Assembly (NCBI GenBank): GCA_007117755.1 | Contig: SKFY01000039.1 | Coordinates: 1 to 39,683, forward strand | Source of the DNA: Candidatus Woesearchaeota archaeon | Lineage (GTDB): Archaea; Nanobdellota; Nanobdellia; Woesearchaeales; 21-14-0-10-32-9 | DNA length: 39,683 nucleotides | Reading direction: 5' to 3' | Shown here: positions 5,400-39,683 of the stretch, in pieces | How positions within the stretch are numbered: position 1 is the stretch's first letter | Layout: each line of letters begins with the position of its first letter | Notes under the pieces: generated by a model | Database searches by the model: none | What the model was told of the DNA's origin: nothing | Seen by the model: the letters and a program-made list of their open reading frames with translations, nothing else | Made by a program: the position numbers and the translations under genes

Positions 5400-5411
5400 G
5401 GTGAATAAATA

Positions 5412-7342: not shown

Positions 7343-7352
7343 TTTAAATAAA
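7343..7352 (+). promoter_or_regulatory. TATA box of tRNA-Ile
   Basis: TTTAAATAAA ends 26 nt before the tRNA 5' end at 7379. Confidence 0.4.
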
Positions 7353-7378
7353 TACATTAGGTCCTGAAAGTAAACTTT

Positions 7379-7455: not shown

Positions 7456-7483
7456 TTATACATTAAAAAAATAAAAAAAAAAG

Positions 7484-7490
7484 TTTTTTT
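7484..7490 (+). terminator. Oligo-T terminator after tRNA-Ile
   Basis: A T7 run follows an A-rich stretch, about 30 nt after the tRNA. Confidence 0.35.
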
Positions 7491-7511
7491 AATTGAGCGA
7501 GGGGATTAACT

Positions 7512-15378: not shown

Positions 15379-15387
15379 TGAAAAAAA

Positions 15388-19526: not shown

Positions 19527-19969
19527 AGCTGAAAAACGAATTAAAAAAAATTAATTTTTTCAATCCCCTAGATTGGTATAGGTTTTTTAGTAAAATAAGA
19601 TTTGTTAGTTTTTTATTAGTAGGCGGAACAGGAGTATTGCTTAATTTGACAATAGTTACTGTTTTAACAGAGTTTTTTTTAGGAAGAGAATTATATTTCT
19701 ATAGTTATTTAATAGGCTTATTCAGTAACTTAACATATAATTTTATTCTATTTACAAAAATAACTTTCAAAACTAAGAAGAACCATAAAAAAAGATATGT
19801 GGTTTATATTACGTATAGCTTAATTATGAGTTTTATACAAGCAATAACCGTGAGGCACATAGTGAACGTGGTAGGAGTAGATTTTTATTTAATAGTTATA
19901 GCCAGCATAATTTTTGTTTTCTCAATTATTAACTTTATGAATTTTAAATTATGGCTTTTTAAAGATTAA
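19523..19969 (+). CDS. GtrA-family small membrane protein (putative lipid-linked sugar translocation)
   Basis: 148 aa with four TM segments and the FLLVGGTGVLLNL signature near the N-terminus. Confidence 0.7.
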   Translation: MKLKNELKKINFFNPLDWYRFFSKIRFVSFLLVGGTGVLLNLTIVTVLTEFFLGRELYFYSYLIGLFSNLTYNFILFTKITFKTKKNHKKRYVVYITYSLIMSFIQAITVRHIVNVVGVDFYLIVIASIIFVFSIINFMNFKLWLFKD

Positions 19970-23390: not shown

Positions 23391-25034
23391 ATGGATAAAC
23401 AATACAAAGCTCACGAATTAGCTAAAGGACAAAGAGATATTAGTATAGCTGAGTTTTTCGAGAGGAATAGACACTTATTAGGTTTTGATAATAAAAGAAA
23501 AGCACTTTTAACCACTATTAAAGAAGCAGTAGATAATAGTATAGATGCATGTGAAGAGTCAGAAATTCTACCCGAGATCATTGTTGAAATAATAGATATG
23601 GGTAATGACAAGTACAGAGTAGTAGTTGAAGATAACGGACCCGGAATTGTTAAGGAGCAAATACCAAAGATATTCGCCAAGCTTTTGTACGGTAGTAAGT
23701 TTCATAAACTTAAAATGCAAAGAGGACAACAAGGTATTGGTATTAGCGCAGCTGTTATGTATGCACAGTTAACCACGGGTAAACCAGCGAGGATAACAAG
23801 TAAGATTCATAAAGACGAACCTGCTTTGTATATGGAAGTTAAAATTAATACGGATACTAATAATCCAGAAGTTTTGAGTTCTGAGAATAAAGAATGGTAT
23901 AAAGAACAAGGTACTAGAATAGAGATAGATTTGGAAGCTACTTATTTTAAAGGAAAACAGAGCGTGGATGAATATCTTAAACAAACAGCAATTATTAATC
24001 CACACGTAACCATTATTTACCAACCTCCTAAAGGAGATCAGATAATGCTTGTCAGAGTTAGTGAAGAAAAACCTGTGCTTCCCAATGAGATTAAACCTCA
24101 TCCTTACGGAGTAGAATTAGGCATGCTTATGAAGATGCTTGAGAAAACCCAAACTAAGACTGTTAAACAGTTTTTACGAGAGGATTTTTCTAAAGTAGGA
24201 AATAAGACTGCAGAGGATATTTTAGAAAATGCAGGTATACTAAGTAAGACTAAGCCTAAACAGATTAATAGGGATATGGCTGAGCGATTAATTAAAGGAA
24301 TTAGAGAAACAAAGATAATGATGCCACCTACTGATTGTATAGTCCCAATAGGCGCGGATTTGTTAGAAAAAGGTTTGAAAAAAGAAGTGAATGCAGAGTT
24401 CTACGCCACTGTTAGTAGAAGCCCAAATGTTTACAGAGGTAATCCATTTTTAGTAGAGGCAAGTTTAGCATTCGGAGGTATGATTGAGAAGGAAGGGAGT
24501 GTTGAGTTAATGAGATTCGCCAACCGGGTTCCTTTATTATACCAACAAGGAGGTTGTGGATTTACAGAAGGAGTTGTTAAGACCGGTTGGAAATCCTACG
24601 GAATACAACAAAGTAATGGGAGTATGCCACAAGGACCTGTAGTTTTAGTTTTACACATAGCTAGTGTTTGGGTGCCTTTTACGAGTGAAGCTAAGGAAGC
24701 TATTGCTCATTATCCAGAGATTATAAAAGAGGTTAAATTAGCTATTCAAGAATTAGGAAGAGATTTAGGCAAGTACATTAATAAAAAGAAAAAGGTAGGT
24801 GCTGAACTTAAGAAGAGAAGCTATATCGAAACATACATACCACATATAACAGAGGCATTGACTGAGTTAATAGATAAGCCAGAAGAGAAGGATTCCTTAA
24901 GTAAAAATTTAAGTGTTTTATTAGAGAAACAAAGAGGAGAAGTTGAAAGTTTAGATTTTGATCCTACTAAGAATACTGAGTACGATGAAGAATTGAAAAA
25001 AATAAGTATGGAAGAGGAGTATGATGAAGAATAA
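23391..25034 (+). CDS. top6B: DNA topoisomerase VI subunit B
   Basis: GHKL ATPase boxes EAVDNSIDA and DNGPGI, followed by transducer domain blocks; 547 aa. Confidence 0.9.
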
Positions 25035-26109
25035 AACTCTTGATGAAATAAAGAAGACAGCAGAGAGACTATATAATAATATAAAGAGGTTGGAAAAAGC
25101 AGAGTTAACCACCCCTGTTAGGAGTTTGTCTAACGTTACTTATAATGAAAAAGACGGCTTTTTTGATTTGAAAGGTAAGATTAAGAAGAGAACACTGACT
25201 GCTAATACTGTTAAAACTTTTGCTCAAACACTAAGAGTTATGACTCTTTCTAAAAGCCTAGTGGAGACTGAAGATATAGCTACTAAGAGAGAGGCTTATT
25301 ACGTTAGTAAGAATTGGTCAGAAGCACGCTTTAATGAACAGAACGAATCAGATAGTGTTATGGATGATTTGGAAGCTATGTTCGGTGTTAATCGTGAACA
25401 AATGGGTTTCATCGCTGATGAACACGGAGGTAGCGTAGCAGGTGAGCTAATAGTTGTTGATAAAGATGCTTCTACAGGTGAAAGGTTAGAAATTGATTGT
25501 ACTAAGTTTGGAAGCGGAGCATATAGTATTCCTAGTGACGTTGAGCATTTAGAGTTCAAAACTAAAGCTAAAGCCGTAATTGCTATTGAAACAAATGGTA
25601 TGTTTGAAAGGTTAAATAAGCATAGTTTTTGGAAGAAGGAACATTGTATATTAGTTAGTATGGGAGGAGTTCCTACTAGAGCCTGTAGGCGTTTTATTAG
25701 AAGATTGAGCGATTCTAATAATTTACCCGTTTATGTTTTTACAGACGGAGATTTTTACGGTTACTTTAATATTTATAGAACTTTAAAAGTGGGTAGTGGA
25801 AACGCTGCTCATATTAATGAATTTTTTTGTGTTCCCCGAGCTAAGTTTATAGGTATAACTCCTCAAGATATTAAGGATTATAAATTACCCACGCATCCTT
25901 TAAAAGATGTTGATATTAAGAGAGGTAAAGACGCTATTAAGAACGATCCTTTTGTTCATAATTATAAAGAATGGCAGGAAGCTATTAAGGAACAAACTAA
26001 GATGGGTGTTAGAGCTGAACAACAAGCATTAGCTAAACACGGATTGAATTTCGTAGTTAGTGATTATTTGCCTGAAAAACTAAAAAAACCTGTTACATGG
26101 CTACCTTGA
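25021..26109 (+). CDS. top6A: DNA topoisomerase VI subunit A (Spo11 homolog)
   Basis: REAYYVS (catalytic Tyr region), IAIETNGMF (Toprim Glu) and VFTDGDFYG (Toprim DxD). It overlaps the end of top6B by 14 nt. Confidence 0.9.
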
Positions 26110-26113
26110 ACAA

Positions 26114-26128
26114 AAAGCTTTATAAATA
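26114..26128 (+). promoter_or_regulatory. BRE/TATA of the P1 unit
   Basis: AAAGCTTTATAAATA, with its TTTATAAA core 24 nt upstream of the ATG at 26151. Confidence 0.45.
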
Positions 26129-26150: not shown

Positions 26151-27317
26151 ATGAACAAAAAAGGTCAAGATTCAACAGGTGCCGCAAGCATAATTTTTGT
26201 AATTACAGCCATATTAGTTCTTTATATTCTTTTAATACCTTCTGACGCTAGAGATTCTTTATTAGACGATAATCTTATTAGTAACGGAAATGATAATGGA
26301 AAAGAGGAAGATAGAGAGTACGTATTGGATGAACACGTGGGGAGATTAGATTATTTGGCTTCTTCAGAGAAGACTTATCCTATAAATTCTTTTATTATGC
26401 AAACTAAAACAGAGGCTAATATTTTAGTATCTAGAAGTGGTTTGAGCGTTATCAAAAGTGTTTTTGAAGATGAAAAAGCACGTGTTGATTTCCAAGCCAA
26501 TCCTGAATTAACAGGGGATTTGACTTTAGCTTTTAACATCGAGAGATCAGGCGGTATTTTAAGTATCACTCTTAATAATAACTTAATATTCAGAGGAGAG
26601 TTGAGTAGTGGTAATTCTCCACATATATTAATTGAGAATAGGCATTTACAAAGACATAACGAGTTAGTTTTTGAAGTTTCTAGTCCAGGATTCGTGTTTT
26701 GGAGAGTTAACCGTTATGATTTAACAAATATTAATGTAGTGGGAGACGTAACGGACGATAGTATGAGTAAGAGTAGTCAGAGTATTAATATTAGAAGTGC
26801 TGATTATGATTTATTTGATACTGCAAGACTTAGATTTTTACCAGTTTGTGATGATTCAGTTAGTGGTTTGAGTATTAGCATAAATAATAGAGAAGTTTTT
26901 AGAGGAAGCCCTGATTGTAATGTTTTTAACCATATAGAGTTTAGTAAAGATATTGTTTACCCAGGTGTTAACTTTTTAGATTTTAAAATTAGCAGAGGTC
27001 ATATTTTAATGGATCGTGTGGAGATTATAAGCAGTCTTGACGCTCCCGAACCTCCTGTTTATTATTTTGAAATTGACGAAGAAGAGTATTTTAGTAATGG
27101 AGAGTTGAACAAGTACGTTATTGCAGGTATAGAGTTTACAAATCCTGATAGGAAAAGATTAGAATTATTTGTGAATGGCAGGATAATAGGTATTACTACA
27201 ACAGATGTTAAAGTTGAAAGAGATATTTCTGAATTTGTAGAGCCAGGAATGAATTCTATAGAGATTAGACCTAGACAAGATCTTGATATTTCTAGTTTGA
27301 AAGTTTGGTTAGAATAA
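26151..27317 (+). CDS. Exported protein P1: pilin-like or signal-anchor N-terminus plus three internal beta-rich repeats; unknown family
   Basis: The N-terminus is MNKKGQ followed by a hydrophobic stretch (AASIIFVITAILVLYILLI). There are three roughly 80-100 aa repeats with a shared LSI(T/S)(L/I)NN..(I/V)FRG and ..N.(L/I)(E/D)F pattern. TTTATAAA lies 24 nt upstream. Confidence 0.6.
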   Translation: MNKKGQDSTGAASIIFVITAILVLYILLIPSDARDSLLDDNLISNGNDNGKEEDREYVLDEHVGRLDYLASSEKTYPINSFIMQTKTEANILVSRSGLSVIKSVFEDEKARVDFQANPELTGDLTLAFNIERSGGILSITLNNNLIFRGELSSGNSPHILIENRHLQRHNELVFEVSSPGFVFWRVNRYDLTNINVVGDVTDDSMSKSSQSINIRSADYDLFDTARLRFLPVCDDSVSGLSISINNREVFRGSPDCNVFNHIEFSKDIVYPGVNFLDFKISRGHILMDRVEIISSLDAPEPPVYYFEIDEEEYFSNGELNKYVIAGIEFTNPDRKRLELFVNGRIIGITTTDVKVERDISEFVEPGMNSIEIRPRQDLDISSLKVWLE

Positions 27318-27378: not shown

Positions 27379-28851
27379 ATGGCTTCAGAAAGTAGTGCGA
27401 GTAACGGCTTCACATTATTATTTATAGTAGCTATAGTGATTCATTTAATAGATATATTCTTGTTTAATTTCGGGACTAGCACAGGCATACTTTTTGCGAG
27501 AGCAACTATTTATTTAGTGGCTTTATCTTTGCCTTTTTATTTATCCATAGAAGGAGAAGCAGAACATAAACTAAAAGCTTCTTTGATACCAACAGGTATA
27601 GTTGTTTTGTTTTTCCCTATTTTTTTATGGATTATTAATTTAGCACCCGTTGATCATACTGTGCAAGAAACATTACATTTTTTAATGTTTATAATACCTA
27701 TTTGGCCTATTTATTTAGCTTTAAATTCGGGTTCGGGAGCTTTACAAACTTTGTTAAAAGCATATATATTCTTATTAGTTGCTGGAGCAATAGTAGTAAT
27801 TATAGGCTTATACGGTAGTGAAATTCCACAAACACCTGGATTAGATATTGGAAGAGTTGATTTTGAAAGAGCATGGACTGGTTTTAGAGAAGTTGTTATT
27901 GACAATACTTTTCAAGGAATAAGTAGTATAATAAGTGGTGCTAGAACCGAGATTGATACCAGGATTAACGAAAGTTTAGGTAGAGGTTATCAAGGAGATG
28001 TGGAAAGAGTTAGTTCTGATACTGGAATAACTATACAAAGACCTAATATTAGGAGTAGTTATAGCGAAGATGATATTATAAGAATATCAATTCCTGTCAG
28101 GGTTAGAACTTTCAAAGATAATGATACCGATATTGCTTTTGAGTGTAGCGCTACTAGTGGAAGAACAAGGGTTTTGGGTAACGTAACACCTAACATTGAA
28201 ACTTTTAGAGGTTTTGATACTAGAACAGTTTTTTGTGAATTCGAAAATCTTAGTAGGGGAACTTATCGTTTTGAGTTCACCGCTAATTTTGAATTTGAAA
28301 CGTGGGGTTATACCGAGCTTTATTTTGTAAGTGCCACGACTATAGAACAGTTATTCGAAGGAGGGGAAAGAATAGATGCTAGAGCCTTCGGTATTCCCAG
28401 GATGCCTAGAACAACATACACTACAGGCCCTGTGTTTTTAGGAACAAATAATAGTCAGGAAATGCCTTTAGAAGTTCATAGTGATAGAGACACTTATATT
28501 TATTTAGACTGGGGTGTTGAGAACGCTAATAGGCTATACGGAGATATTAACAGGATTAATCATTTTGAAGTGAGTTTACCTAGTGTTTTTAATTTGGATA
28601 GTGATAGGTGTAATTTACCTATTAGTAGCAGTGAAAGCGACACATCCGTTTCAGATTTATACACTTTACACAGATTTGAATATGACGGCACCGGGAGGAT
28701 TCTTAGTTTGGGTTGTGAAGTCACAATCCCTGTTAGTCAAAGAGGCGTTATTGTTAGTGATACTATAGGGAGTCTTACTGAAGTTACTGTTTTGTCAAAG
28801 GTTAATTATGATTATAGCTTAAGAGCTTTGGATACTATTAGGGTGACGTGA
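27379..28851 (+). CDS. Membrane protein P2: five TM helices plus a ~340-aa Cys-pair ectodomain; unknown family
   Basis: Five hydrophobic helices fall within aa 10-146. The ectodomain has two modules: FECSAT..VFCEF..FEFETWGYTELYFV and DRCNL..LGCEV..VNYDYSLRALDTIRV. Both resemble the C-terminal module of P3-P5. Confidence 0.6.
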   Translation: MASESSASNGFTLLFIVAIVIHLIDIFLFNFGTSTGILFARATIYLVALSLPFYLSIEGEAEHKLKASLIPTGIVVLFFPIFLWIINLAPVDHTVQETLHFLMFIIPIWPIYLALNSGSGALQTLLKAYIFLLVAGAIVVIIGLYGSEIPQTPGLDIGRVDFERAWTGFREVVIDNTFQGISSIISGARTEIDTRINESLGRGYQGDVERVSSDTGITIQRPNIRSSYSEDDIIRISIPVRVRTFKDNDTDIAFECSATSGRTRVLGNVTPNIETFRGFDTRTVFCEFENLSRGTYRFEFTANFEFETWGYTELYFVSATTIEQLFEGGERIDARAFGIPRMPRTTYTTGPVFLGTNNSQEMPLEVHSDRDTYIYLDWGVENANRLYGDINRINHFEVSLPSVFNLDSDRCNLPISSSESDTSVSDLYTLHRFEYDGTGRILSLGCEVTIPVSQRGVIVSDTIGSLTEVTVLSKVNYDYSLRALDTIRVT

Positions 28852-28854: not shown

Positions 28855-29889
28855 ATGAAGAAGATAATACTTATGATTATGATACTAGGATTTTTAGTAA
28901 TCGCTGGTTGCGAACCTAGTCATCAAACTAGTCAATACGTAGGTACTAGAGGTGTGGATTTTGATTTTAGTACTAATATGCCACCTGACCAAGTTTATGT
29001 TAACGACGTTGTTTATTTCGGATTTGATGTTTTTAACAGAGGAGCACATGGCTTAGTAGGAGGTAAACAAGGTGTTTTAACTCTTGATTATAACCCTCTC
29101 TATTTCGAAATAGAAGGTACTCAACCAGATATTTTTTCTTTAACCGATCAGTCTAATAGATTATACACGACTTTTAACGTTGATGGGAGAAGAACGAGTT
29201 ACACACAAGGAGAAAAAACAGTGGTTAATCTTGGTTTGTTAAGAGCACAACTTCCAGGAACTAGAGAATCAGTGAATACTGCTTTGAACGCGAACATATG
29301 TTATCCTTATCGTACTTTCTTATCAGATGTTGTGTGTATAGACACTAATGTTTTTGAAGACGTCACAGATCCTTTGTGTAGAAGCACTCCCAAGACGTAT
29401 ACAGGGGGGCAAGGAGCTCCTATAAGTGTTTCTAGAGTTAATCCTTTAATGATGCCTATACGTGTAATTGAAGATGAAACCGAAACCACAGTTAGTATTG
29501 TTGATGAACACGGCCAATTCTGGGGTGTCGAGTCAGAAGTGGTTAGTACTAGACATGTTGTGTTAAAGCCTGTTTTTGAAATCCATATAAGGAACGTGGG
29601 CGGAGGAACTCCTTTTTATTCAGACGATAGAACAATTTTAGATGCTTGTCTTCGTAGTGATGAAACACGTCAGTTAAACAAGGTTTATGTAGAAGCTGAC
29701 TTGCAAGGTTTAGAACTTGATTGCACTCCTAGAATTGTTGATTTAAAAGATGGTATTACTCGTTGTGAAGTGAGAGATGATGATTTATCCGCTACTAGCA
29801 GTAGTTATAACGCTGTTTTAAATGTTGAATTAGAGTATTATTATGTGGATAGTCAAAGTAAAAGTGTATCTATTAGAAGATTAAGATAA
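28855..29889 (+). CDS. Lipobox protein P3, member of a paralogous triad; unknown family
   Basis: The signal peptide ends in VIAGC (lipobox-like). It has six further Cys (149, 161, 175, 265, 290, 304). Motifs are ICYPYRTF..VVCID..LCRS..GQGAPISVSR, IRNVGGG and the C-terminal ELEYYYVDSQSKSVSI. It starts 3 nt after the P2 stop. Confidence 0.65.
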   Translation: MKKIILMIMILGFLVIAGCEPSHQTSQYVGTRGVDFDFSTNMPPDQVYVNDVVYFGFDVFNRGAHGLVGGKQGVLTLDYNPLYFEIEGTQPDIFSLTDQSNRLYTTFNVDGRRTSYTQGEKTVVNLGLLRAQLPGTRESVNTALNANICYPYRTFLSDVVCIDTNVFEDVTDPLCRSTPKTYTGGQGAPISVSRVNPLMMPIRVIEDETETTVSIVDEHGQFWGVESEVVSTRHVVLKPVFEIHIRNVGGGTPFYSDDRTILDACLRSDETRQLNKVYVEADLQGLELDCTPRIVDLKDGITRCEVRDDDLSATSSSYNAVLNVELEYYYVDSQSKSVSIRRLR

Positions 29890-29902
29890 CTCACTAAATA
29901 AG

Positions 29903-29910
29903 TTTTTTTT
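29903..29910 (+). terminator. Oligo-T terminator after P3
   Basis: A T8 run lies 13 nt after the P3 stop codon, upstream of the P4 promoter. Confidence 0.45.
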
Positions 29911-29926
29911 AACTCGTGACTAATAA

Positions 29927-29940
29927 AAAGCTTTAAATAG
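29927..29940 (+). promoter_or_regulatory. BRE/TATA of the P4-P5 unit
   Basis: AAAGCTTTAAATAG ends 25 nt before the ATG at 29966. It is nearly identical to the P1 promoter. Confidence 0.45.
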
Positions 29941-29965
29941 TGTAGTTGTTAATAACTCTTATATT

Positions 29966-31258
29966 ATGGTTAATAATCGTGTAATCCTAGTGTTTTTACT
30001 GTCTTCAGTACTATTTTTAGCAGGGTGTATGCCCTTTGGCACTGATAAAGCTGCTAGGTGCGCCGATGATTTAGTAAATTGTAATTTTTATACAGGTAGT
30101 GAAGGCGTGGAGTTCAGACTACAAAATCCTCCCAGAACTCTTTATTTCCATTCTTATGACGCCCACCCAACAGACCCCGTGGGTAATAGAGTGGATTTTG
30201 ATATTAGAGTTGCTAACAGAGGAGCTAGTGAGACCTACGGAGCTACTTTTTTAACAGGTTTCGGAAGTAATTTTAGAATAATAAGACCTGACGGTACCGA
30301 AATTAGTAAGAGAGGAGTTCTGGATAGTTGTACATTTAATATAGGTGTGGGTGACGGAAGCATATTTTCAAGTTTCGCAATTAGATGTGAAGGTTTAGAT
30401 TTTCAAAGAAGCGACTGGGGAACTACTTTTAATGCTAGATTCAGCACTTTAAACGATATATTCGGATGGAACTTACCAGATGGACAAATAAGGATATTTG
30501 ATGACGGAGACGGATTAGATTTCACATTAGGACTTGAAGGTATGAGGTTAGATTTATATTATCACGGTAAAATATTATTAGGAATGATTAGTCATATAAA
30601 CTTAGATTATTACGGAGGAGCGGAGTTTTGGTTAAGAGGAGATAATCCTGAATACCCAGGAGGAGAGGAAGATTTCCAGACTTATACTGTTCAAATGTTA
30701 GGTAATTGGCCTGCAGGAACAGATAGGTATACCATGAATTATCAAGTAAAAAGTTGTTATGCTTATACTACTTTTGTAAGTCCTTTAGTTTGTGTAGATC
30801 CCAGTCCTTATTCAGGAGATGATAAGGTTTGTAGAACTAATCAAGCGGTTAATATGGGAACTCAAGGAGCTCCAGTGGCTGTTACTAGAATGGAACAGTA
30901 TAATACAGGAAGAACTTTAGAACTGATATTTACAGTGAGAAACGTCGGCGGAGGACAAGTTTGGGAAATAGGAAGCCTTGAAAGATGCAGTCCTTATTAT
31001 CCTGATACGAGAATAACCAGTGGTCATAAAAACATTATTTATGTAGGATATGCAGAGATTGGAGGAGTAGGTTTGAGATGTGACAGAAGAGAAATAAGAT
31101 TAAATGAGAGAGGAGAAGGTACTTTCCGCTGTACTTATAACTTGGCGGATTCAGACACCTTAGTAGGAAGTGCTTATGAAGCTCCTATTAGGATGGAGCT
31201 TTGGTATGGTTATGAAAAATCAATAACTAGATCTTTAGAAATAATGAGGGCTAGTTAA
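29966..31258 (+). CDS. Lipobox protein P4, member of a paralogous triad (with a ~110-aa insertion); unknown family
   Basis: The signal peptide ends in FLAGC. Motifs are SCYAYTTF..LVCVD..VCRT..TQGAPVAVTR, VRNVGGG and the C-terminal MELWYGYEKSITRSLEI. It has four extra Cys in two pairs, and its own TATA-like box 25 nt upstream. Confidence 0.65.
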   Translation: MVNNRVILVFLLSSVLFLAGCMPFGTDKAARCADDLVNCNFYTGSEGVEFRLQNPPRTLYFHSYDAHPTDPVGNRVDFDIRVANRGASETYGATFLTGFGSNFRIIRPDGTEISKRGVLDSCTFNIGVGDGSIFSSFAIRCEGLDFQRSDWGTTFNARFSTLNDIFGWNLPDGQIRIFDDGDGLDFTLGLEGMRLDLYYHGKILLGMISHINLDYYGGAEFWLRGDNPEYPGGEEDFQTYTVQMLGNWPAGTDRYTMNYQVKSCYAYTTFVSPLVCVDPSPYSGDDKVCRTNQAVNMGTQGAPVAVTRMEQYNTGRTLELIFTVRNVGGGQVWEIGSLERCSPYYPDTRITSGHKNIIYVGYAEIGGVGLRCDRREIRLNERGEGTFRCTYNLADSDTLVGSAYEAPIRMELWYGYEKSITRSLEIMRAS

Positions 31259-31264
31259 GGAGGT
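31257..31264 (+). promoter_or_regulatory. Shine-Dalgarno site of P5
   Basis: AAGGAGGT lies 8 nt upstream of the ATG at 31273. Confidence 0.6.
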
Positions 31265-31272
31265 AAAATAAT

Positions 31273-32232
31273 ATGAAAAGAACAGTATTAATAATGTTAC
31301 TCGTGGCGGTTTTATTAGTTGCGGGTTGTGAAGGAGACAGCGAAACTAGGTTAAGAGCAGATCCTTTTATAGGAGGAACAGAAGGTTTACAAGCTCGTTA
31401 CATAGAAGGTTATCCTCCATCTAGCGTATTAGATGGTGGAGAGGACGAGTTTAGCGTGATTGTAGAGTTAACTAATAAAGGAGAAGCTGAAATTGAACCT
31501 CAAAACGTTAAAGTTACTTTAGGAGGATTCTCAGCAAGACACTTCAACAAAGGCATTGAAGACTTAACAAGGTTTAATTCTGAGCTTATAGAAAAGAATC
31601 AGAAGAATCCTGATGGAAGTATTATAGAATCTTTCCCTTACGAGATAGAATTCGAAGGATTTTCTTACCAAGATAGGATTCAAGGAAATCAAGAATATCC
31701 TTTCAGAGCAGAAATTTGTTACGGTTACCAAACTAATGTTGTTTCAAGTGTTTGTGTAAAGGAAGACTTTAGAAGAGATACTGCCGATAGGGATATATGT
31801 ACTGTTAATAGTAGAAGAACAGTTCATAATAGCGCCGCTCCTGTTCAAGTTACTAACTTACAGCAAACAGCTGCTAGTACAGGCTCTGCAAGAGTCACGT
31901 TTAAAGTTGAAAACGTGGGTAGAGGAGATGTTTATAAGGTTGGTGCTGAAGAAACTTGTAATGTAGATAGTAGAGATATAAACATGGTACATGTTGAAAT
32001 TAGTGGTTTTGAAACCGGTGCTGGTGAAGAAGTCGATTGTAGAGGCTTAAGAGATGGCGATAGTACTAGTGGATTCTTAAATATTGGTGGAGACACAGGT
32101 GGAGAAGTTAGTTGTACTATTTCTTTCGCTGATGGTACCAGATCTGCTAGGATTCAAAACTTCGATATAACTTTAGACTACGACTATAGACAAACTATTA
32201 CTAGAAGTATCGTTGTAGAACACGGTTCTTAA
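31273..32232 (+). CDS. Lipobox protein P5, member of a paralogous triad; unknown family
   Basis: The signal peptide ends in LVAGC. Motifs are ICYGYQTN..SVCVK..ICTV..SAAPVQVTN, VENVGRG and the C-terminal LDYDYRQTITRSIVV. A strong SD, AAGGAGGT, lies 8 nt upstream. Confidence 0.65.
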   Translation: MKRTVLIMLLVAVLLVAGCEGDSETRLRADPFIGGTEGLQARYIEGYPPSSVLDGGEDEFSVIVELTNKGEAEIEPQNVKVTLGGFSARHFNKGIEDLTRFNSELIEKNQKNPDGSIIESFPYEIEFEGFSYQDRIQGNQEYPFRAEICYGYQTNVVSSVCVKEDFRRDTADRDICTVNSRRTVHNSAAPVQVTNLQQTAASTGSARVTFKVENVGRGDVYKVGAEETCNVDSRDINMVHVEISGFETGAGEEVDCRGLRDGDSTSGFLNIGGDTGGEVSCTISFADGTRSARIQNFDITLDYDYRQTITRSIVVEHGS

Positions 32233-32250: not shown

Positions 32251-32257
32251 TTTTTTT
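32251..32257 (+). terminator. Oligo-T terminator after P5
   Basis: A T7 run lies 18 nt after the P5 stop codon. Confidence 0.4.
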
Positions 32258-32259: not shown

Positions 32260-33219
32260 TTATTTTTTTGTATTGATTATTACGAATGTTGCGAGTAAGC
32301 TTTCTAATTGTATGTATTCATCGCTTCCTTCTACTAGTTTGAATTCTACTTCTCCGCATTCTCTTATCATCCTCATTTTTTTAGGATTGTCTATTTCTAA
32401 GGACCATATTTCTTTTTGTAGTTGTTTTATGACGTCGCTTCCTGAAAGTCCTTGTTTTAGCATTACGTCTAGTAGTGATTTTTTTGCTTGTTCAAAGTTT
32501 TCTTTTAGACAGTGTTGTAATAATTCTTTTATTTCTCTTGGTTCTGCATAGCTTGATATTTCGTATATCGTGCTTTCTTCTATGTTATTGGTTACTGCGT
32601 GGGCGCTTTGCATTATGTTTTCTAGTTTCCTTACATCTCCGTTACTTACTTGGTAAAGTGCTTTTTTTGCGTCGTTTGTTAATGTTATGGATTCTTTTTT
32701 AGCTATGTTATCTATTATATTGTTAATTTCTTCTTCGTTTAAGGGTTTGAATCTGAAAAGTGTGCATCTGCTTTGTATAGGGTCTATTATCTTGCTGCTG
32801 TAGTTGCAGCTTAGTATGAAGCGACATGTTTGTGTGTAGTTTTCCATTGTTCTTCTTAGTGCTTGTTGTGCTTCTTTAGTTAGTGCGTCGCTTTCGTCTA
32901 AGTAGATTATTTTGAATGGTGCGTTTCCCAGGCTTTTTGTCCTGGCGAAGTCTTTTACTTTTTGTCTTACTACGTCTATTCCTCTTTCATCACTCGCGTT
33001 TAATTCCAAGAAGTTTTCTTTCCATTCTTCTCCGTATAGTTCTTTTACTATTACTAGTGATAAAGTGGTTTTTCCTACGCCTGGTGGTCCTGAGAATAGT
33101 AAGTGTGGTAAGTTTTTTTTGTCTACGAATGCTTTTACTCTTTTTACTATGTCGTCTTGTCCTTTTACTTCTGAGAATTTTTGTGGTCTGTATTTTTCTG
33201 TCCAGATGTTTGACTCCAT
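32260..33219 (-). CDS. rfcS: Replication factor C small subunit
   Basis: WTEKYRP, GPPGVGKTT (Walker A), IIYLDESD (Walker B) and the QSRC motif; 319 aa, no intein. Confidence 0.9.
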   Translation of the reverse strand: MESNIWTEKYRPQKFSEVKGQDDIVKRVKAFVDKKNLPHLLFSGPPGVGKTTLSLVIVKELYGEEWKENFLELNASDERGIDVVRQKVKDFARTKSLGNAPFKIIYLDESDALTKEAQQALRRTMENYTQTCRFILSCNYSSKIIDPIQSRCTLFRFKPLNEEEINNIIDNIAKKESITLTNDAKKALYQVSNGDVRKLENIMQSAHAVTNNIEESTIYEISSYAEPREIKELLQHCLKENFEQAKKSLLDVMLKQGLSGSDVIKQLQKEIWSLEIDNPKKMRMIRECGEVEFKLVEGSDEYIQLESLLATFVIINTKK

Positions 33220-33888: not shown

Positions 33889-34104
33889 ATGGTTACTACA
33901 ATTCAAATCTCGGACAAAACAAAAAATAAGTTGAATATTATTAAATCAAATACTAAAAAGACTTATGACGAAATAGTTTCATCTCTTTTAGAGCATGAAG
34001 AAAAGTTATTGTTAAAAGAGCAAATAAGTAGTTATTATTCTAAGTATGCCGATGAAGATTTAGAAGAAGTTAATGAGTGGAAATATACCGAGGTAAGAGA
34101 TTGA
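33889..34104 (+). CDS. Antitoxin of a type II TA pair (short ribbon/VapB-DUF217-like N-terminus)
   Basis: 71 aa. TIQISDKTKNKLNIIK...TYDEIVSSLL resembles the archaeal putative-antitoxin family usually found with PIN toxins. The C-terminal tail is acidic. Its stop overlaps the toxin start (TTGA). Confidence 0.55.
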   Translation: MVTTIQISDKTKNKLNIIKSNTKKTYDEIVSSLLEHEEKLLLKEQISSYYSKYADEDLEEVNEWKYTEVRD

Positions 34105-34415
34105 AACAAGGAGAAATATACTTGGTTAACTTAGATCCTGTAGTTGGAAGTGAGCAGGCTAAAACAAGACCTTGTGTTATTATATCCACCGATATCGTAA
34201 ATGATTTTTCGAATACTTTAACTATAGCCCCATTATCTTCTAAAATTAGAGACAAGCCTTTTCCTTTTCACATTAAACTAGATAAAAAAGGTTTGATAAA
34301 AGTAGAGCAGCTTAGAACGATTGATAAGAAAAGAATTGTGAAGCGAGTTGGTAATGTAGATTTTGAAACTAAAAATAAAATCAAGAAAGCTTTAGCGCTT
34401 TATTTTGATTTATAA
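34101..34415 (+). CDS. mazF: MazF/PemK-family toxin (endoribonuclease)
   Basis: GEIYLVNLDPVVGSEQAKTRPCVIIS is the classic PemK/MazF N-terminal block. I prefer the TTG start at 34101, which has GAGGT 6 nt upstream and a TTGA overlap. The track start is the GTG at 34077. Confidence 0.8.
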   Translation: MKQGEIYLVNLDPVVGSEQAKTRPCVIISTDIVNDFSNTLTIAPLSSKIRDKPFPFHIKLDKKGLIKVEQLRTIDKKRIVKRVGNVDFETKNKIKKALALYFDL

Positions 34416-37374: not shown

Positions 37375-38052
37375 TTAACTCCAACCACTTATGAAAAGCT
37401 CATGTACATCAGGACACGCTGTTTCCAAACCATTTACAACGTCTGATAAAACCTCAGGGTTTTGAGCTGGGATCATTTCAGCTTCAGCCATATTTGCGAA
37501 TCCGTAAGTTCTTGCCATTTCATCCGCTTCAGCTCCTTCAAGAATGCTTATTCCCGGGTCGCAAGTCATGTGTACGTTCATCTGAACATACCTGTCATAA
37601 GCAGATGCTGTAAGATCTATCTCTGCAGGAGTATAATCTCCTAAATCAATTGTTTCTGTCATGCCTTCGCCCATACCTGTTACCCAGTCAATGTATTCAG
37701 GACAATTTTCCGTTAATAACTCCAAGTATTCTTCAGAATCTTGAATGCCTTGGTATTTTTCTCCTTCTAACTCTGCTTCTCGCATATTAGCATAACCATA
37801 CCTTTGTGCGAATGCATCTAATTCATGATCCTCCATGAACGCCATGTCTTCTTCACCATAAACTAGACATGTTAAATCGGCTGAGAATCTTAGATAATTA
37901 TCGCGGTCTGACGAAGCGACAGTCTCTGTCTCGACAGGTTCGTAATCTTCTAAAACTTCCTCTCCTTGTAATTCTTGATCTGATACTTCACTTGCGCAAC
38001 CAGTAACTATTAGCATTACTAATGCGATTAATAAATAATTTCTAACTTTCAT
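37375..38052 (-). CDS. Ultra-acidic lipobox protein with an internal two-fold repeat; unknown family
   Basis: The start is the ATG at 38052 with GAGGTG 6 nt upstream. The signal peptide ends in IVTGC. Two roughly 80-aa repeats each carry ..TC.., YG(Y/F)ANM.EAE and ..CP(E/D).. Only 2 Lys in 225 aa. Confidence 0.65.
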   Translation of the reverse strand: MKVRNYLLIALVMLIVTGCASEVSDQELQGEEVLEDYEPVETETVASSDRDNYLRFSADLTCLVYGEEDMAFMEDHELDAFAQRYGYANMREAELEGEKYQGIQDSEEYLELLTENCPEYIDWVTGMGEGMTETIDLGDYTPAEIDLTASAYDRYVQMNVHMTCDPGISILEGAEADEMARTYGFANMAEAEMIPAQNPEVLSDVVNGLETACPDVHELFISGWS

Positions 38053-39683
38053 TATTAACACCTCTGCTTCTTTTCAAATACTCTCTTCCTGCAAAGAAAA
38101 CAACTCCTAAGATCACCAGGATTATTATCGTCCAAAGCAACCAATTAGAACTTCTTTCTTCTTCCTCTAACTCTTCTGTTTCATCAACAATTTCTTCCTC
38201 TTCCACTACTTCTATTATGAAAAGTTCAACTTTTTCATCAAATATATTAACGATTTCTATTAATACATCGTTGTTTCCATCATTGTTAATATCTAATTTC
38301 CAAGTATCTCCTTTAGCTAATGTCTTATTTTGAGGGTTTAAAGCCAAAGTTACTGTAGCGTTTTCTTCACTAATATTTTGAATAGTTATGGAATAATTTT
38401 GACCGCTTAGATTAATAATTAATTCTTGTTCTTTTGTTAAATTTATAAAAACACCTTCTTTTAAATCATCCAATATAATTTGTTGATACTTTACTAAATC
38501 ATCTTCTTCCTCAACTTGTCGTGATCTTCTTCTACTGAGTGGAAGTAAGGTTTCTTCTTCCTCCACTTCAGGCTCTACATAAATCAACCAGACATATTCA
38601 TCAATATTTTCCTGCCATGCTAATAGAGGATAACCATTATTTAATTCCAAATTTATTGAAGTTATATTCCATTCTGGCAGGTATGAATTAATGTTTTTCA
38701 TTTCTTCTGTTGTGAGTCCTATTCCATCACCACTAGAAGCATGCCCTGAATCATCTATATCCCAATAACTATTTTCAACCTGACCAGTTATTCCACTTAT
38801 TCCTGAAAACCCTCCGCTATTTGTTCCCGTGGCATTGGAGTTCGTCCAACTGTTATTAATTCTGGCTGGAGAGTCACCTATTCCTCCTATAAATCCTCCT
38901 GCTTGCTCATTATTTGCATGTACTTTAACATCTATAGAATAACTATTTCTTATTTCTCCTACAATAGCTGAAAGAGTAGTCATACTTCCAATTACTCCTC
39001 CAACCCTGTACTCTCCTGTTACTTCCCCTCCAATTACTCCAACTTCTTGAACCAAACCATTCCTTCTTATAGAGCCAGATATTGTTCCTACTCTTTCATC
39101 TCCTGTTATGTTAGGTTGTATTAAAATAAAAGAGTTAACTCCCGCGCCTGTACTATCTGTTATATCTCCAAATAGTCCAACAGCTGTTTGGGAAGGTCTG
39201 TTTATGTATAGATAGCTGATGGTTTTGTTATTTCCTGAAAATTCGCCTGTATAAGCATTATTTAATTCTCCTATTGGCTCAAATCCAGCTCCTTCATTCC
39301 AGTTCTGAGTGTAACTGGCATTAATATCATTGATTAAAACATAATCAGCTGATAAGTCATCCTGCATACACTGCAAGTCATGAACGTTGCTTATTTCATA
39401 CGGCTCGCTATGTCCGCTCCACCAATTATTACAATCTGGTGAGTTCGAAAAGTTTTCCACATGTAAAGTTCTTAATTCGGTAAAATTTTCAGTACCAAAA
39501 CTATCGTTCACATAAGCATAATATTCATAAGTTCCAATTGAAAGGTTTTCTTTATTTACTAAGAATTGCCATCTATCCAAATCTATCTTTTTTAGGTTTG
39601 AAACATAAACTTTTTGAATTTCCTCCTCAGCTAGAGCTCTGTTCCAAATACGCAGTTCATCTACACTTCCATCCGATAAAGGA
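38042..39683 (-). CDS. Large surface protein (LamG-like end, GLUG-like repeats, beta-sandwich, acidic stalk, C-terminal TM anchor); 5' end outside the window
   Basis: The frame stays open to the right edge. Upstream of the track start it reads ..SVDELRIWNRALAEEEIQKVY, a LamG/concanavalin-like signature. Repeated VGLFG/VGGVIG/GGFIGG motifs (GLUG-like) and YWDIDDSGHASSGDGIGLTTEEMK follow. The C-terminus has an E-rich stalk, the TM WLLWTIIILVILGVVFFAG and a basic tail. Confidence 0.65.
   Translation of the reverse strand, partial: PLSDGSVDELRIWNRALAEEEIQKVYVSNLKKIDLDRWQFLVNKENLSIGTYEYYAYVNDSFGTENFTELRTLHVENFSNSPDCNNWWSGHSEPYEISNVHDLQCMQDDLSADYVLINDINASYTQNWNEGAGFEPIGELNNAYTGEFSGNNKTISYLYINRPSQTAVGLFGDITDSTGAGVNSFILIQPNITGDERVGTISGSIRRNGLVQEVGVIGGEVTGEYRVGGVIGSMTTLSAIVGEIRNSYSIDVKVHANNEQAGGFIGGIGDSPARINNSWTNSNATGTNSGGFSGISGITGQVENSYWDIDDSGHASSGDGIGLTTEEMKNINSYLPEWNITSINLELNNGYPLLAWQENIDEYVWLIYVEPEVEEEETLLPLSRRRSRQVEEEDDLVKYQQIILDDLKEGVFINLTKEQELIINLSGQNYSITIQNISEENATVTLALNPQNKTLAKGDTWKLDINNDGNNDVLIEIVNIFDEKVELFIIEVVEEEEIVDETEELEEEERSSNWLLWTIIILVILGVVFFAGREYLKRSRGVNNES

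What the first reader, a model, noticed from the sequence alone, without database searches (positions are those of the whole stretch)
28855..32232. Triad of paralogous lipobox proteins with six invariant cysteines and two V-x-N-x-G beta-sandwich signatures
P3 (344 aa), P4 (430 aa) and P5 (319 aa) align by eye along their whole length. The shared elements, in order, are listed here. (1) A lipobox Cys at residue 19, 21 and 19. (2) G(T/S)xG(V/L) just after the anchor. (3) A first h-x-V-x-N-(R/K)-G strand: FDVFNRG, IRVANRG, VELTNKG. (4) The block (I/S)CY-x-Y-x-T...VC(I/V)...(L/V/I)C(R/T)...APhxV(S/T). (5) A second (R/E)NVG(G/R)G strand. (6) Three more Cys. (7) A C-terminal (L/M)(E/D)hxYxY...(S/T)hxh strand. 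Cys149 and Cys161 have the same residue numbers in P3 and P5. P4 carries a ~110-aa insertion with two extra Cys pairs. Six conserved Cys suggest three disulfides, which fits an extracellular location. The V-x-N-x-G strands recall CARDB-like sandwiches, but the Cys block does not match anything I know.
Basis: seen in the sequence. Interest (0 to 1): 0.65.

Follow-up and report, generated by a model that had tools for sequence, protein, structure and literature searches.

The report
Woesearchaeal disulfide-stapled surface lipoprotein operon
Three neighbouring genes of an uncultivated soda-lake DPANN archaeon (Woesearchaeota) encode anciently duplicated, lipid-anchored, disulfide-braced two-domain Ig-like surface proteins from a large undescribed family, and in related genomes the first of the three carries an enzyme head that cuts bacterial cell wall, so the conserved five-gene operon they sit in may be the cell-contact apparatus of these archaea.

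Summary
P3, P4 and P5 are paralogues (BLASTP 1e-13, 6e-14). They belong to a large family with no Pfam, NCBIfam or PDB match (3361 cluster representatives). In 172 members the lipobox Cys and all six further Cys are essentially invariant. In 167 of 169 members the mature protein has an even number of Cys, which supports disulfides. AlphaFold (pLDDT 88) gives two Ig-like beta-sandwiches, and Foldseek finds only generic tandem-Ig matches.

New findings:
- The trio is the 3' part of a conserved five-gene operon in Woesearchaeota. P1 has a prepilin-like or signal-anchor N-terminus. P2 has about 5 TM helices plus an ectodomain.
- Orthology is position-specific, so the triplication is ancient.
- All ten family members found with a peptidoglycan lytic-transglycosylase head (5 SLT, 5 3D) are P3-type. 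Two related bases carry different heads.
- N-glycosylation sequons are five-fold depleted (z = -21).
- The operon evolves about three times faster than its housekeeping neighbours.

Best reading: a membrane-anchored, probably heteromeric, surface scaffold for cell-cell contact, with P3 as the effector-carrying subunit. The head is absent in this window. Structure and conservation are shown. Complex formation and function are inferred.

The parts
26113..26126 (+). BRE/TATA-like element AAAAGCTTTATAAA, 24 nt upstream of the P1 ATG; probable operon promoter with a leaderless or short-leader transcript
   Evidence: The exact 14-mer AAAAGCTTTAWAWA occurs only twice in the window, here and upstream of P4 (0.08 expected). 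The pattern was chosen post hoc from these two sites. TATA-like elements also lie upstream of P1 in five other loci.
26151..27317 (+). P1, 388 aa. The N-terminus is [KR][KR][GA][QE] followed by a hydrophobic helix (prepilin-like class III signal or signal anchor). The ectodomain is beta-rich with one conserved Cys pair (C233/C256). It has 0 N-x-S/T sequons.
   Evidence: Conserved as the first gene of the cluster in the related loci that reach far enough upstream. N-termini are listed, Cys. No Pfam, NCBIfam or PDB match.
27379..28851 (+). P2, 490 aa. It has about 5 N-terminal TM helices (conserved His22, P107-x-W109), a long helix, then a beta-rich ectodomain with two conserved Cys pairs. It ends in a V-N-Y-D-Y strand like the strands that end both domains of P3-P5.
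   Evidence: Alignment and hydropathy. hhalign places the C-terminal strand on the family's CYxYxT strand with E 4e-4 but only 34% probability. The AF2 model is unusable (pLDDT 41). It is conserved as the second gene.
28855..29889 (+). P3, 344 aa lipoprotein. It is the P3-type paralogue, the class that carries SLT or 3D lytic-transglycosylase heads in other genomes. Here the protein ends right after the Y-x-Y strand with no head.
   Evidence: The start lies 3 nt after the P2 stop, which suggests translational coupling.
28855..28911 (+). P3 Sec-type signal peptide and lipobox (MKKIILMIMILGFLVIAG-C19)
   Evidence: Sequence. The lipobox Cys is present in 169 of 172 family members.
29299..29379 (+). 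P3 Cys block: C149-Y-x-Y-x-T ... V-C161 ... C175
   Evidence: All three Cys are 172/172 and Y152 is 172/172.
29452..29574 (+). Insertion of about 40 aa in domain 2, specific to P3-type proteins
   Evidence: Present in P3, P0004, P0010 and P0012, and shorter in P0020 and P0023; absent from P4 and P5 types.
29903..29910 (+). T8 run after P3; possible archaeal terminator or pause before the internal promoter
   Evidence: Read directly from the sequence. Function not tested.
29926..29939 (+). Second copy of the BRE/TATA-like element (AAAAGCTTTAAATA), 26 nt upstream of the P4 ATG; probable internal promoter
   Evidence: Similar TATA-like elements lie upstream of P4 in L001 and L004.
29966..31258 (+). 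P4, 430 aa lipoprotein. Lipobox Cys21. Domain 1 is expanded by about 110 aa. Extra Cys pairs are C32/C39 (tether) and C122/C141 (expansion).
   Evidence: The best hit in other loci is always the second paralogue.
31273..32232 (+). P5, 319 aa lipoprotein. Lipobox Cys19. It is the most conserved and most numerous subfamily. A GGAGG Shine-Dalgarno sequence precedes the ATG.
   Evidence: The AF2 model has pLDDT 87.7 and pTM 0.80.
31366..31767 (+). P5 beta-sandwich domain 1 (about residues 32-165). It contains the V-x-N68-x-G70 strand and ends in the long C149-Y-x-Y-x-T...C161 strand.
   Evidence: DSSP of the AF2 model and conservation data.
31819..32223 (+). P5 beta-sandwich domain 2 (about residues 183-317). 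It contains the x-N-V-G-x-G strand and Cys229, Cys256 and Cys281, and ends in the long L-D-Y-D-Y strand.
   Evidence: A sub-threshold CARDB match covers residues 194-256.
32251..32257 (.). T7 run between the convergent P5 and RFC genes; possible shared terminator
   Evidence: Read directly from the sequence. Not tested.

Best explanation
P3, P4 and P5 are three anciently diverged paralogues of an undescribed family that so far appears specific to Woesearchaeota (GTDB Nanoarchaeota).

What each protein is (shown unless marked):
- Each is exported by a Sec-type signal peptide.
- Each is presumably lipid-anchored through a canonical lipobox Cys (inferred).
- A short disordered tether links the anchor to two Ig-like (E-set/CARDB-like) beta-sandwich domains.
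- Each domain ends in a long h-x-Y-x-Y strand.
- The six further invariant Cys are read as three disulfides (inferred).

Operon context (shown): they are co-encoded, in fixed order, with P1 (prepilin-like or signal-anchored ectodomain protein) and P2 (about 5 TM helices plus an ectodomain) in a five-gene operon conserved across Woesearchaeota.

Function (inferred): the five disulfide-stabilised, largely glycan-free ectodomains assemble into a membrane-anchored hetero-oligomeric surface scaffold or stalk that mediates contact with another cell. P3 is the distal, effector-carrying subunit. In many lineages its C-terminus continues through a Cys-rich linker into a peptidoglycan lytic transglycosylase. 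That head is either an SLT (lysozyme-like) or a 3D (MltA-like) domain, and the two are interchangeable. This points to bacterial cell walls as the target surface.

In this window P3 has no lytic head. Here the operon would encode the bare attachment or structural scaffold.
For: Shown:
- Paralogy.
- Family size: 3361 representatives at E<=1e-3 and 1757 at E<=1e-30.
- Invariance of the lipobox and the six Cys.
- Even Cys parity in 167 of 169 members. P1 and P2 ectodomains have one and two conserved Cys pairs.
- A two-beta-sandwich model with pLDDT 87.7 and only generic tandem-Ig structural neighbours such as integrin alpha, MSCRAMM adhesins and VPS26.
- Gene order P1-P2-P3-P4-P5 in L001-L005, L010 and L013, with a variant middle gene in L007, L008, L011, L012 and L015.
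- Position-specific orthology.
- SLT domains in P0023, P0045, P0073, P0122 and P0165, and 3D domains in P0020, P0044, P0062, P0074 and P0130, all above Pfam thresholds. All ten are P3-type.
- P0020 and P0023 share 41% identity over the base and a linker of about 100 aa, then carry different heads. They sit in the same gene position with the same upstream synteny.
- A P2 homologue (P0172) has a sub-threshold SLT-like C-terminus.
- Sequons are five-fold depleted, 93 observed against 466 +/- 18 expected, while control patterns lie near expectation and all three subfamilies show it. This fits tightly packed or interaction-dedicated surfaces.
- P1-P5 are 62-68% identical to L004 while the flanking Topo VI, RFC and helicase are 85-95% identical. 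This is typical of exposed interaction proteins.

Literature: large extracellular LT proteins of Woese- and Pacearchaeota have been proposed to bind or degrade bacterial walls (PMC8204110, PMC9723730). Lipobox proteins are prevalent in DPANN (PMC12462473).
Against: - No direct evidence shows that the five proteins interact. Co-transcription and fixed order are only suggestive.
- The window's own P3 lacks any lytic domain. The operon sits among housekeeping genes in every genome examined, so its core role may be structural rather than host-directed.
- The share of P3-type proteins with LT heads (10 of 17 in the top list) is inflated. The search profile contained positions from the P0020 and P0023 extensions.
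- The hosts of Woesearchaeota are unknown.
- No expression data exist (no RNA runs).
- Lipidation and disulfides are inferred from sequence. Disulfide geometry could not be checked.
- The homology of P2 to the family is only hinted at (34% probability).
Confidence: 0.5

Rival explanations
1. Constitutive cell-envelope layer. The five proteins build a membrane-proximal protein coat or pseudo-periplasmic spacer (an S-layer substitute or S-layer anchor) needed for envelope integrity. The lytic-transglycosylase heads are lineage-specific decorations displayed on it, and the core has no role in host contact.
For: - The operon is present in every sufficiently long Woesearchaeota locus retrieved. It is embedded between Topo VI and RFC in several of them.
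- Ig-like domains are the usual building blocks of archaeal S-layers (general knowledge).
- The window's P3 has no effector head.
- Fixed stoichiometry-like gene order.
Against: - N-glycosylation sequons are five-fold depleted, whereas archaeal S-layer proteins are typically heavily N-glycosylated.
- The same window encodes a different protein with 17 sequons and a C-terminal TM anchor that looks more like a glycosylated coat protein.
- Known S-layers use one or two proteins, not five separately anchored ones (PMC5744192).
- The fast divergence and repeated head-swapping on one specific paralogue point to an interaction function.
Confidence: 0.25
2. Accessory or platform components of a pilus-like or secretion-like surface machine. 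P1 is a type-IV-pilin-like subunit processed by a prepilin peptidase. P2 is the polytopic membrane platform. P3-P5 are lipoprotein accessory or tip factors.
For: P1 orthologues share a [KR][KR][GA][QE] motif followed by a hydrophobic helix of about 20 residues, resembling class III signal peptides. P2 has about 5 TM helices with conserved His and Trp.
Against: - There is no assembly ATPase, PilC/FlaJ-type platform protein or prepilin peptidase in the window or next to the operon in any locus.
- In P1 4-12 polar residues separate the putative cleavage site from the helix, which is atypical.
- P1 is large (388 aa) with a globular beta-rich domain.
Confidence: 0.1
3. Three independent, partly redundant adhesins or ligand-binding lipoproteins (for example glycan-binding or nutrient-scavenging proteins) that do not form a complex with each other or with P1 and P2.
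For: Tandem Ig-like surface proteins are often stand-alone adhesins; MSCRAMMs are among the Foldseek neighbours. Some family members carry other C-terminal modules, such as NPCBM_assoc or unknown Cys-rich domains.
Against: - Redundant paralogues would not keep strict position-specific orthology and gene order across deep divergence.
- There is no transporter next to them.
- The fold is not that of a solute-binding protein.
- The P2/P3 gene junction is only 3 nt.
Confidence: 0.12
4. The conserved Cys bind a metal or cofactor (an extracellular redox or metal-binding protein) rather than forming disulfides.
For: Six invariant Cys. The habitats are anoxic, where extracellular disulfides are less expected.
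Against: - There are no CxxC or CxxCH-type spacings.
- Cys counts are even in 167 of 169 members, including members with 8-28 Cys.
- The extra Cys of P4 come in conserved local pairs.
- The Cys are spread over both domains and strands.
Confidence: 0.03

Closest known systems
CARDB (PF07705) and related E-set Ig-like beta-sandwich domains (DUF11, NPCBM_assoc/NEW3)
   Same: Both are beta-sandwich domains with an h-x-V-x-N-x-G strand-turn near the start. Sub-threshold CARDB hits fall on domain 2 in 7 of 24 members. The fold is Ig-like in the model.
   Different: No member reaches the Pfam threshold. The C-Y-x-Y-x-T...C...C block, the six-Cys framework, the terminal Y-x-Y strands and the fixed two-domain lipoprotein architecture are not CARDB features.
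Bacterial membrane-bound lytic transglycosylase lipoproteins (MltA with a 3D domain; MltC/D/E and Slt-type with an SLT/GH23 domain; RlpA)
   Same: In P3-type relatives (P0020, P0023 and others) a lipobox anchor is combined with a murein-cleaving SLT or 3D domain. P0023 keeps the catalytic Glu, the GLMQ motif and the Y-N-G motif. P0020 keeps the D-x-G...I-D-V-Y 3D motif (sequences).
   Different: The proteins are archaeal, and the producer has no murein of its own to remodel. A two-Ig-domain stalk plus a Cys-rich linker lies between anchor and enzyme. The window's P3-P5 lack the enzyme domain altogether.
Large extracellular lytic-transglycosylase proteins of Woesearchaeota and Pacearchaeota (fam00969 and 'module 98' families, Castelle 2021 PMC8204110; GH23 proteins, Vigneron 2022 PMC9723730)
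   Same: Same lineage, same enzyme domain and the same proposed target (bacterial walls). The P3-SLT fusions found here are probably a subset of what those surveys counted as GH23 genes.
   Different: Those papers report the LT domain and list lineage-specific families of unknown function. They do not describe the Ig-like lipoprotein base, the paralogue trio, the Cys framework or the five-gene operon, as far as the searched library shows.
Archaeal lipobox lipoproteins (Haloferax volcanii AliA/AliB substrates; PMC12462473, PMC13631571)
   Same: Canonical [LVI][ASTVI][GAS]C lipobox after a Sec-type signal peptide. Lipoproteins are predicted to be prevalent in DPANN.
   Different: Characterised archaeal lipoproteins are mostly solute-binding proteins. 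This family is a tandem-Ig structural or adhesive module. Lipidation has not been shown for any DPANN protein.
Tandem IgG-like adhesins and stalks (staphylococcal MSCRAMMs ClfB/SdrG, integrin alpha thigh/calf domains, enterococcal WxLIP)
   Same: These are the best Foldseek neighbours, all surface proteins with two consecutive beta-sandwiches.
   Different: TM-scores are only 0.11-0.24 and sequence identity is about 10%. There is no LPXTG signal or latch strand, and the anchoring differs. The resemblance is fold class only.
Archaeal S-layer glycoproteins (for example Haloferax csg, Nitrosopumilus SLP)
   Same: Surface-exposed chains of Ig-like domains. Some, such as Haloferax csg, are lipid-anchored.
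   Different: Sequons are strongly depleted instead of enriched. There are five different, individually anchored small proteins. No S-layer domain matches.

Membership tests
Lipobox lipoproteins (bacterial-type signal II / archaeal lipobox proteins) | N-terminal signal peptide with a basic n-region and a hydrophobic h-region | tested here: met
   The N-termini are MKK..., MVNNR... and MKR..., each followed by 13-16 hydrophobic residues. Hydropathy segments span residues 1-23, 1-26 and 1-24. There is no twin-arginine motif, so export would be Sec-type.
Lipobox lipoproteins (bacterial-type signal II / archaeal lipobox proteins) | Lipobox [LVI][ASTVI][GAS]-C at the end of the h-region | tested here: met
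   IAG-C19, LAG-C21 and VAG-C19. The Cys is present in 169 of 172 family members. LPAM_1 matches 11 of 24 members below threshold.
Lipobox lipoproteins (bacterial-type signal II / archaeal lipobox proteins) | Covalent lipid on the +1 Cys and cleavage of the signal peptide | not testable with these tools
   This needs mass spectrometry or labelling of the native or heterologously expressed protein.
Lipobox lipoproteins (bacterial-type signal II / archaeal lipobox proteins) | Lipidation machinery (AliA/AliB-type, arCOG02177) encoded in the genome | not tested
   Only a 40-kb window is available. PMC12462473 reports the family in DPANN 'with some gaps'.
CARDB (PF07705) | Score at or above the Pfam gathering threshold (22.7 bits) | tested here: not met
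   P5 scores 14.6 bits (E 0.04); P3 and P4 have no hit. Across the family 7 of 24 members hit, with a best E of 0.0078.
CARDB (PF07705) | Ig-like beta-sandwich with a V-x-N-x-G strand-turn | tested here: met
   The AF2 model shows two beta-sandwiches. N61 is kept in 170 and G63 in 172 of 172 in domain 1. In domain 2 the N is variable while the two G are kept in 145 and 157 of 172.
Membrane-bound lytic transglycosylases (SLT PF01464 / 3D PF06725) | Presence of a catalytic lytic-transglycosylase domain | tested here: not met
   The window's P3, P4 and P5 have none. The feature is met only in P3-type relatives: 5 with SLT and 5 with 3D.
Archaeal S-layer glycoproteins | Multiple N-glycosylation sequons / heavy glycosylation | tested here: not met
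   P1, P3, P4 and P5 have 0 sequons. Across the family 93 are observed against 466 expected.
Archaeal S-layer glycoproteins | Match to a known S-layer domain family | tested here: not met
   No Pfam or NCBIfam hit.
Archaeal S-layer glycoproteins | Very high abundance and formation of a 2-D lattice | not testable with these tools
   No RNA or proteome data exist for this organism. It needs cryo-ET and proteomics.
MSCRAMM-type tandem IgG adhesins | Close structural superposition of the two DEv-IgG domains and a cell-wall sorting signal | tested here: not met
   Foldseek TMq is 0.11-0.19 and RMSD exceeds 20 A for ClfB, SdrG and SdrD. There is no C-terminal LPXTG; the proteins end at the Y-x-Y strand.
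Type IV pilin-like proteins (class III signal peptide), for P1 only | [KR]-[GA] cleavage motif directly followed by a hydrophobic helix of about 20 residues | tested here: inconclusive
   KKGQ, RRGE, KKAQ or KRAQ is conserved in 10 P1 orthologues, but 4-12 polar residues precede the helix.
Type IV pilin-like proteins (class III signal peptide), for P1 only | Neighbouring assembly ATPase, platform protein or prepilin peptidase | tested here: not met
   None is found in the window or in the flanks of L001-L003.

The most novel reading that the evidence does not exclude
The five-gene operon encodes a previously unrecognised archaeal cell-contact organelle. It would be a glycan-free, disulfide-stapled heteromeric stalk (P1, P2 and three lipoproteins) with which Woesearchaeota dock onto bacterial cells. 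The P3 subunit would act as an exchangeable 'warhead carrier' (SLT or 3D murein lyases, or none) that breaches the partner's peptidoglycan. If so, it would be the first defined molecular apparatus for cross-domain (archaeon-on-bacterium) episymbiosis or predation.
Probability: 0.3. Interest if true: 0.85.

Novelty: new variant of a known kind. Interest (0 to 1): 0.6.

Why it matters
Woesearchaeota are among the most widespread uncultivated archaea. Their hosts and their mode of cell-cell interaction are unknown.

The only molecular hint so far has been scattered 'large lytic transglycosylase' genes. This analysis shows that at least some of those enzymes are the variable distal end of one specific subunit (P3-type) of a conserved, fast-evolving five-protein surface system. 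That subunit has an unusually rigid design:
- a lipid anchor;
- two Ig-like domains;
- three invariant disulfides;
- almost no N-glycosylation sites.

This gives a concrete, testable target set. It can be used for antibodies or FISH-coupled imaging of contact sites, for muramidase assays of the heads, and for predicting which lineages attack bacteria. It also defines a large protein family (more than 3000 clusters at 50% identity) that current domain databases lack.

Tried and rejected
- Sequence databases. Pfam, NCBIfam and PDB sequence searches of P1-P5 and of family profiles found nothing above threshold.
- Structure search. Foldseek of the P5 model against PDB and BFVD gave only generic tandem beta-sandwich hits with TM <= 0.26.
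- P2 homologues.
- P2 structure. The resulting model is unusable (pLDDT 41, pTM 0.24), so I did not run Foldseek on it.
- Remote homology.
  - Profile-profile tests of P1 and P2 against the family were not significant: E 0.77 for P1 and E 0.31 for P2.
  - With larger alignments, the last strand of P2 aligns at E 4e-4 but with only 34% probability.
  - An internal duplication of domain 1 and domain 2 is only hinted at (E 0.027).
- Related loci. The search for related loci on the broad alignment failed because no conserved stretch was available. The P5-subfamily alignment found 13 loci.
- Expression. Only the source soda-lake DNA run holds the sequence, and there are no RNA runs.
- Taxonomy. The listing of cluster members gave no organism names for distant members.
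- Hypotheses rejected.
  - Solute-binding lipoproteins: wrong fold and no transporter nearby.
  - Metal or cofactor-binding Cys: ruled out by parity and spacing.
  - Mobile or viral origin: the operon is syntenic between Topo VI and RFC in several genomes.
  - Chance ORFs: ruled out by the 3361 homologues.
- Not possible. Disulfide connectivity could not be derived because model coordinates are not exposed.

Full report
**1. What is in the window**

The window has about 31% G+C. It carries archaeal housekeeping genes:
- Topo VI B and A at 23391-26109;
- the RFC small subunit at 32260-33219 on the minus strand;
- a RIO kinase, GatB, TruD, Trm1 and OapB/OapC.

Its only public source is a soda-lake metagenome. 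Its closest relatives are MAGs labelled Candidatus Woesearchaeota, which GTDB places in Nanoarchaeota.

The finding covers three consecutive + strand ORFs:
- P3, 28855-29889, 344 aa;
- P4, 29966-31258, 430 aa;
- P5, 31273-32232, 319 aa.

**2. Check of the observation**

BLASTP gives P3-P4 E = 1e-13 and P4-P5 E = 6e-14. P3 and P5 match directly only at the N-terminus, but they are linked through P4 and through profiles.

All three proteins start with a basic n-region, a hydrophobic h-region and a canonical lipobox (IAG-C19, LAG-C21, VAG-C19).

A profile search of 5.8 billion proteins found 23 relatives. All are hypothetical proteins, and the named ones come from Woesearchaeota. An exhaustive HMM search of 1.84 billion cluster representatives found 3361 at E <= 1e-3 and 1757 at E <= 1e-30.

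In the 24-sequence alignment the invariant columns are C19, G30, G33, N61, G63, G119, C149, Y150, Y152, T154, C161, C175, P189, G251, C265, C290, C304, Y328 and Y330.

In 172 sequences the counts are as follows:
- lipobox Cys, 169/172;
- C149, C161 and C175, 172/172;
- C265, 171/172;
- C290 and C304, 170/172, with the misses being gaps in fragments;
- N61, 170/172, and G63, 172/172.

In the second 'N-V-G-x-G' element the N is variable (72 H, 53 N).

There are also two minor corrections:
- P4's roughly 110 extra residues are several segments that expand domain 1.
- Only one extra Cys pair (C122/C141, conserved in all five P4 orthologues) lies in that expansion. The other (C32/C39) is in the tether.

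**3. Disulfides**

Of 169 members with a lipobox Cys, 167 have an even number of Cys after it: 6 in 145 members, and 8 to 28 in 22 more. The two exceptions are a fragment (3 Cys) and one protein with 7.

Among the 23 proteins with more than six Cys, 22 are even. Random parity would give that result with a probability of about 3e-6.

The ectodomains of P1 and P2 have one and two conserved Cys pairs. Pairing of all non-lipobox Cys into disulfides is therefore well supported. The connectivity remains unknown.

**4. Fold**

AlphaFold2 on P5 with the 24-sequence alignment gives mean pLDDT 87.7 and pTM 0.80. The model has these parts:
- a signal helix;
- a disordered tether at residues 18-31;
- two beta-sandwich domains, at about residues 32-165 and 183-317.

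Each domain ends in a strand of 23-24 residues that carries the (C)Y-x-Y motif.

Foldseek against PDB and BFVD finds only generic tandem Ig-like proteins: integrin alpha thigh/calf, MSCRAMM adhesins, VPS26/arrestin, WxLIP and the STT3 soluble domain. E-values are about 1e-5 to 1e-3, but TM-scores are at most 0.26.

CARDB matches stay below threshold, with P5 at 14.6 bits against a 22.7-bit cut-off and 7 of 24 members matching.

**5. Context: a conserved five-gene operon**

Two same-strand genes precede the trio.

- P1 (26151-27317) starts with KKGQ followed by a hydrophobic helix. The [KR][KR][GA][QE] motif is conserved in ten orthologues and resembles a class III (prepilin-like) signal. Polar residues intervene, however, so a plain signal anchor is equally possible.
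- P2 (27379-28851) has about five TM helices, with conserved His22 and P-x-W, and a beta-rich ectodomain ending in V-N-Y-D-Y.

HMMs for P1, P2 and the trio, run over 16 related loci, show the order P1-P2-P3-P4-P5 in L001-L005, L010 and L013. In a groundwater clade the middle gene is replaced by a Cys-rich TM protein. One locus has extra paralogues of 664 and 1028 aa.

The best hit of window P3, P4 and P5 in other loci with all three paralogues is always the paralogue in the same position. The triplication is therefore ancient and the copies are not redundant.

The gene junctions suggest one or two transcription units:
- P2 and P3 are 3 nt apart.
- P5 has a GGAGG Shine-Dalgarno sequence.
- A 14-nt BRE/TATA-like element occurs exactly twice in the window, 24-26 nt upstream of P1 and of P4. 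I chose this pattern post hoc from these two sites.

**6. The functional clue**

Every long family member with a recognisable extra domain carries a peptidoglycan lytic transglycosylase at its C-terminus.
- SLT (PF01464): P0023, P0045, P0073, P0122 and P0165.
- 3D (PF06725): P0020, P0044, P0062, P0074 and P0130.

All ten score above Pfam thresholds. Subfamily HMMs classify all ten as P3-type. P0023 and P0020 sit in the third gene position of the operon.

P0020 and P0023 are 41% identical over the two-domain base and a shared Cys-rich linker of about 100 aa. They then continue into unrelated catalytic folds, in genomes with the same upstream synteny. The head is therefore exchangeable on a conserved carrier.

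A distant P2 homologue (P0172) has a sub-threshold SLT-like C-terminus with E-S and G-I-M-R motifs.

Published surveys noted 'large extracellular murein lytic transglycosylases' in Woese- and Pacearchaeota and proposed binding to, or attack on, bacterial walls (PMC8204110, PMC9723730). I found no description of the base module or the operon in the searchable literature.

**7. Two further properties**

First, N-x-S/T sequons are five-fold depleted in the family. I observed 93 against 466 +/- 18 in composition-preserving shuffles (z = -21). Control patterns lie near expectation: S/T-x-N at 0.89, Q-x-S/T at 1.35 and D-x-S/T at 1.19. The depletion holds in all three subfamilies.

Window P1, P3, P4 and P5 have no sequon at all. 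By contrast, an ORF at the window edge (38042-39580, minus strand) has 17 sequons and a C-terminal TM anchor. Glycosylation is evidently selected against on these proteins. This argues for tightly packed or recognition-dedicated surfaces and against a typical S-layer glycoprotein.

Second, P1-P5 are 62-68% identical to their L004 orthologues, while the flanking Topo VI-A, RFC and helicase are 85-95% identical. The same roughly three-fold rate difference appears against L001 and L005. P2 and P3 diverge fastest.

**8. Interpretation**

Shown:
- a very large, undescribed family found here only in Woesearchaeota-labelled genomes;
- a lipobox signal;
- a two-Ig-domain fold;
- an invariant six-Cys framework with even parity;
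- a conserved operon with position-specific orthology;
- P3-specific, exchangeable murein-lyase heads in relatives;
- sequon avoidance;
- fast evolution.

Inferred:
- lipidation of the +1 Cys;
- three disulfides per protein;
- assembly of the five ectodomains into one membrane-anchored scaffold;
- a role in contact with bacterial cell walls.

In this window P3 has no head, so the local function would be the scaffold or adhesion part.

The main rival is a constitutive envelope layer that merely displays enzymes in some lineages. Sequon depletion, five separate anchors and head-swapping argue against it, but it is not excluded. Pilus-accessory and independent-adhesin readings are less likely, because no assembly genes are nearby and because orthology is strict.

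**9. Novelty and score**

The fold class, the lipid anchor and the enzyme heads are all known kinds. The family, its Cys framework, the trio-plus-two operon and the carrier role of P3 are not described. I rate it a new variant of a known kind, with interest 0.6. The main reason is that it turns the vague 'DPANN have lytic transglycosylases' observation into a defined, testable surface system.

Noticed in passing
window 38042-39580 (-): A 512-aa ORF at the window edge has 17 N-x-S/T sequons (33 per 1000 aa, against about 5 per 1000 in neighbouring genes). It has GG[FV]IG (GLUG-like) repeats, an acidic stretch and a C-terminal TM anchor with a basic tail. It has no Pfam hit. It is probably a heavily N-glycosylated surface protein, in contrast to the sequon-free P1, P3, P4 and P5.
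   Followed up: partly
window 33889-34415 (+): A PemK/MazF-type toxin (34077-34415, E 1.5e-30) overlaps a small upstream putative antitoxin (33889-34104, VapB-like, below threshold). The pair lies between RFC and the Ski2-like helicase. In L004 the RFC and helicase genes are only about 175 bp apart, so there is no room for such a pair; in L001 a single 128-aa gene lies between them.
   Followed up: partly
window 5019-5795 (+): Adjacent OapB and OapC (origin-associated protein) genes suggest that a chromosomal replication origin may be nearby, for example in the roughly 700-bp non-coding gap at 6806-7511 that also holds tRNA-Ile.
   Followed up: no
window 14674-19969 (+): A same-strand cluster contains two GT2 glycosyltransferases, a GtrA-like membrane protein and three membrane or unknown proteins. 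It is probably a surface glycan or N-glycosylation-related locus. This fits the view that the organism glycosylates some surface proteins.
   Followed up: no
window 2424-2515 (-): ARAGORN reports a 92-nt tRNA with a four-base anticodon (ccta). It is most likely an intron-containing archaeal tRNA that was mis-parsed.
   Followed up: no
L008 5436-6956; L009 3632-6718 and 8338-10332: The operon varies between lineages. In a groundwater Woesearchaeota clade the P4 position holds a 506-aa protein with 24 Cys and an N-terminal TM. One 'Nanoarchaeota' MAG has four family paralogues, including proteins of 1028 aa and 664 aa (the latter with 23 Cys) whose C-terminal parts have no Pfam match.
   Followed up: partly
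P0172 (P2 homologue, 970 aa), residues 677-774: A distant P2-type protein carries a C-terminal extension with SLT-like motifs (A-T-V-E-S-N, C-G-I-M-R-I). The SLT match is below the Pfam threshold (E 0.026). More C-terminal sequence follows, which I did not analyse. This hints that lytic heads can also sit on P2.
   Followed up: partly
L001 3698-4140; L002 5931-6480: P2 orthologues in other genomes have N-terminal extensions of 100-190 aa that are absent from the window's P2. The extensions are charged and low-complexity or coiled-coil-like, and presumably cytoplasmic.
   Followed up: no
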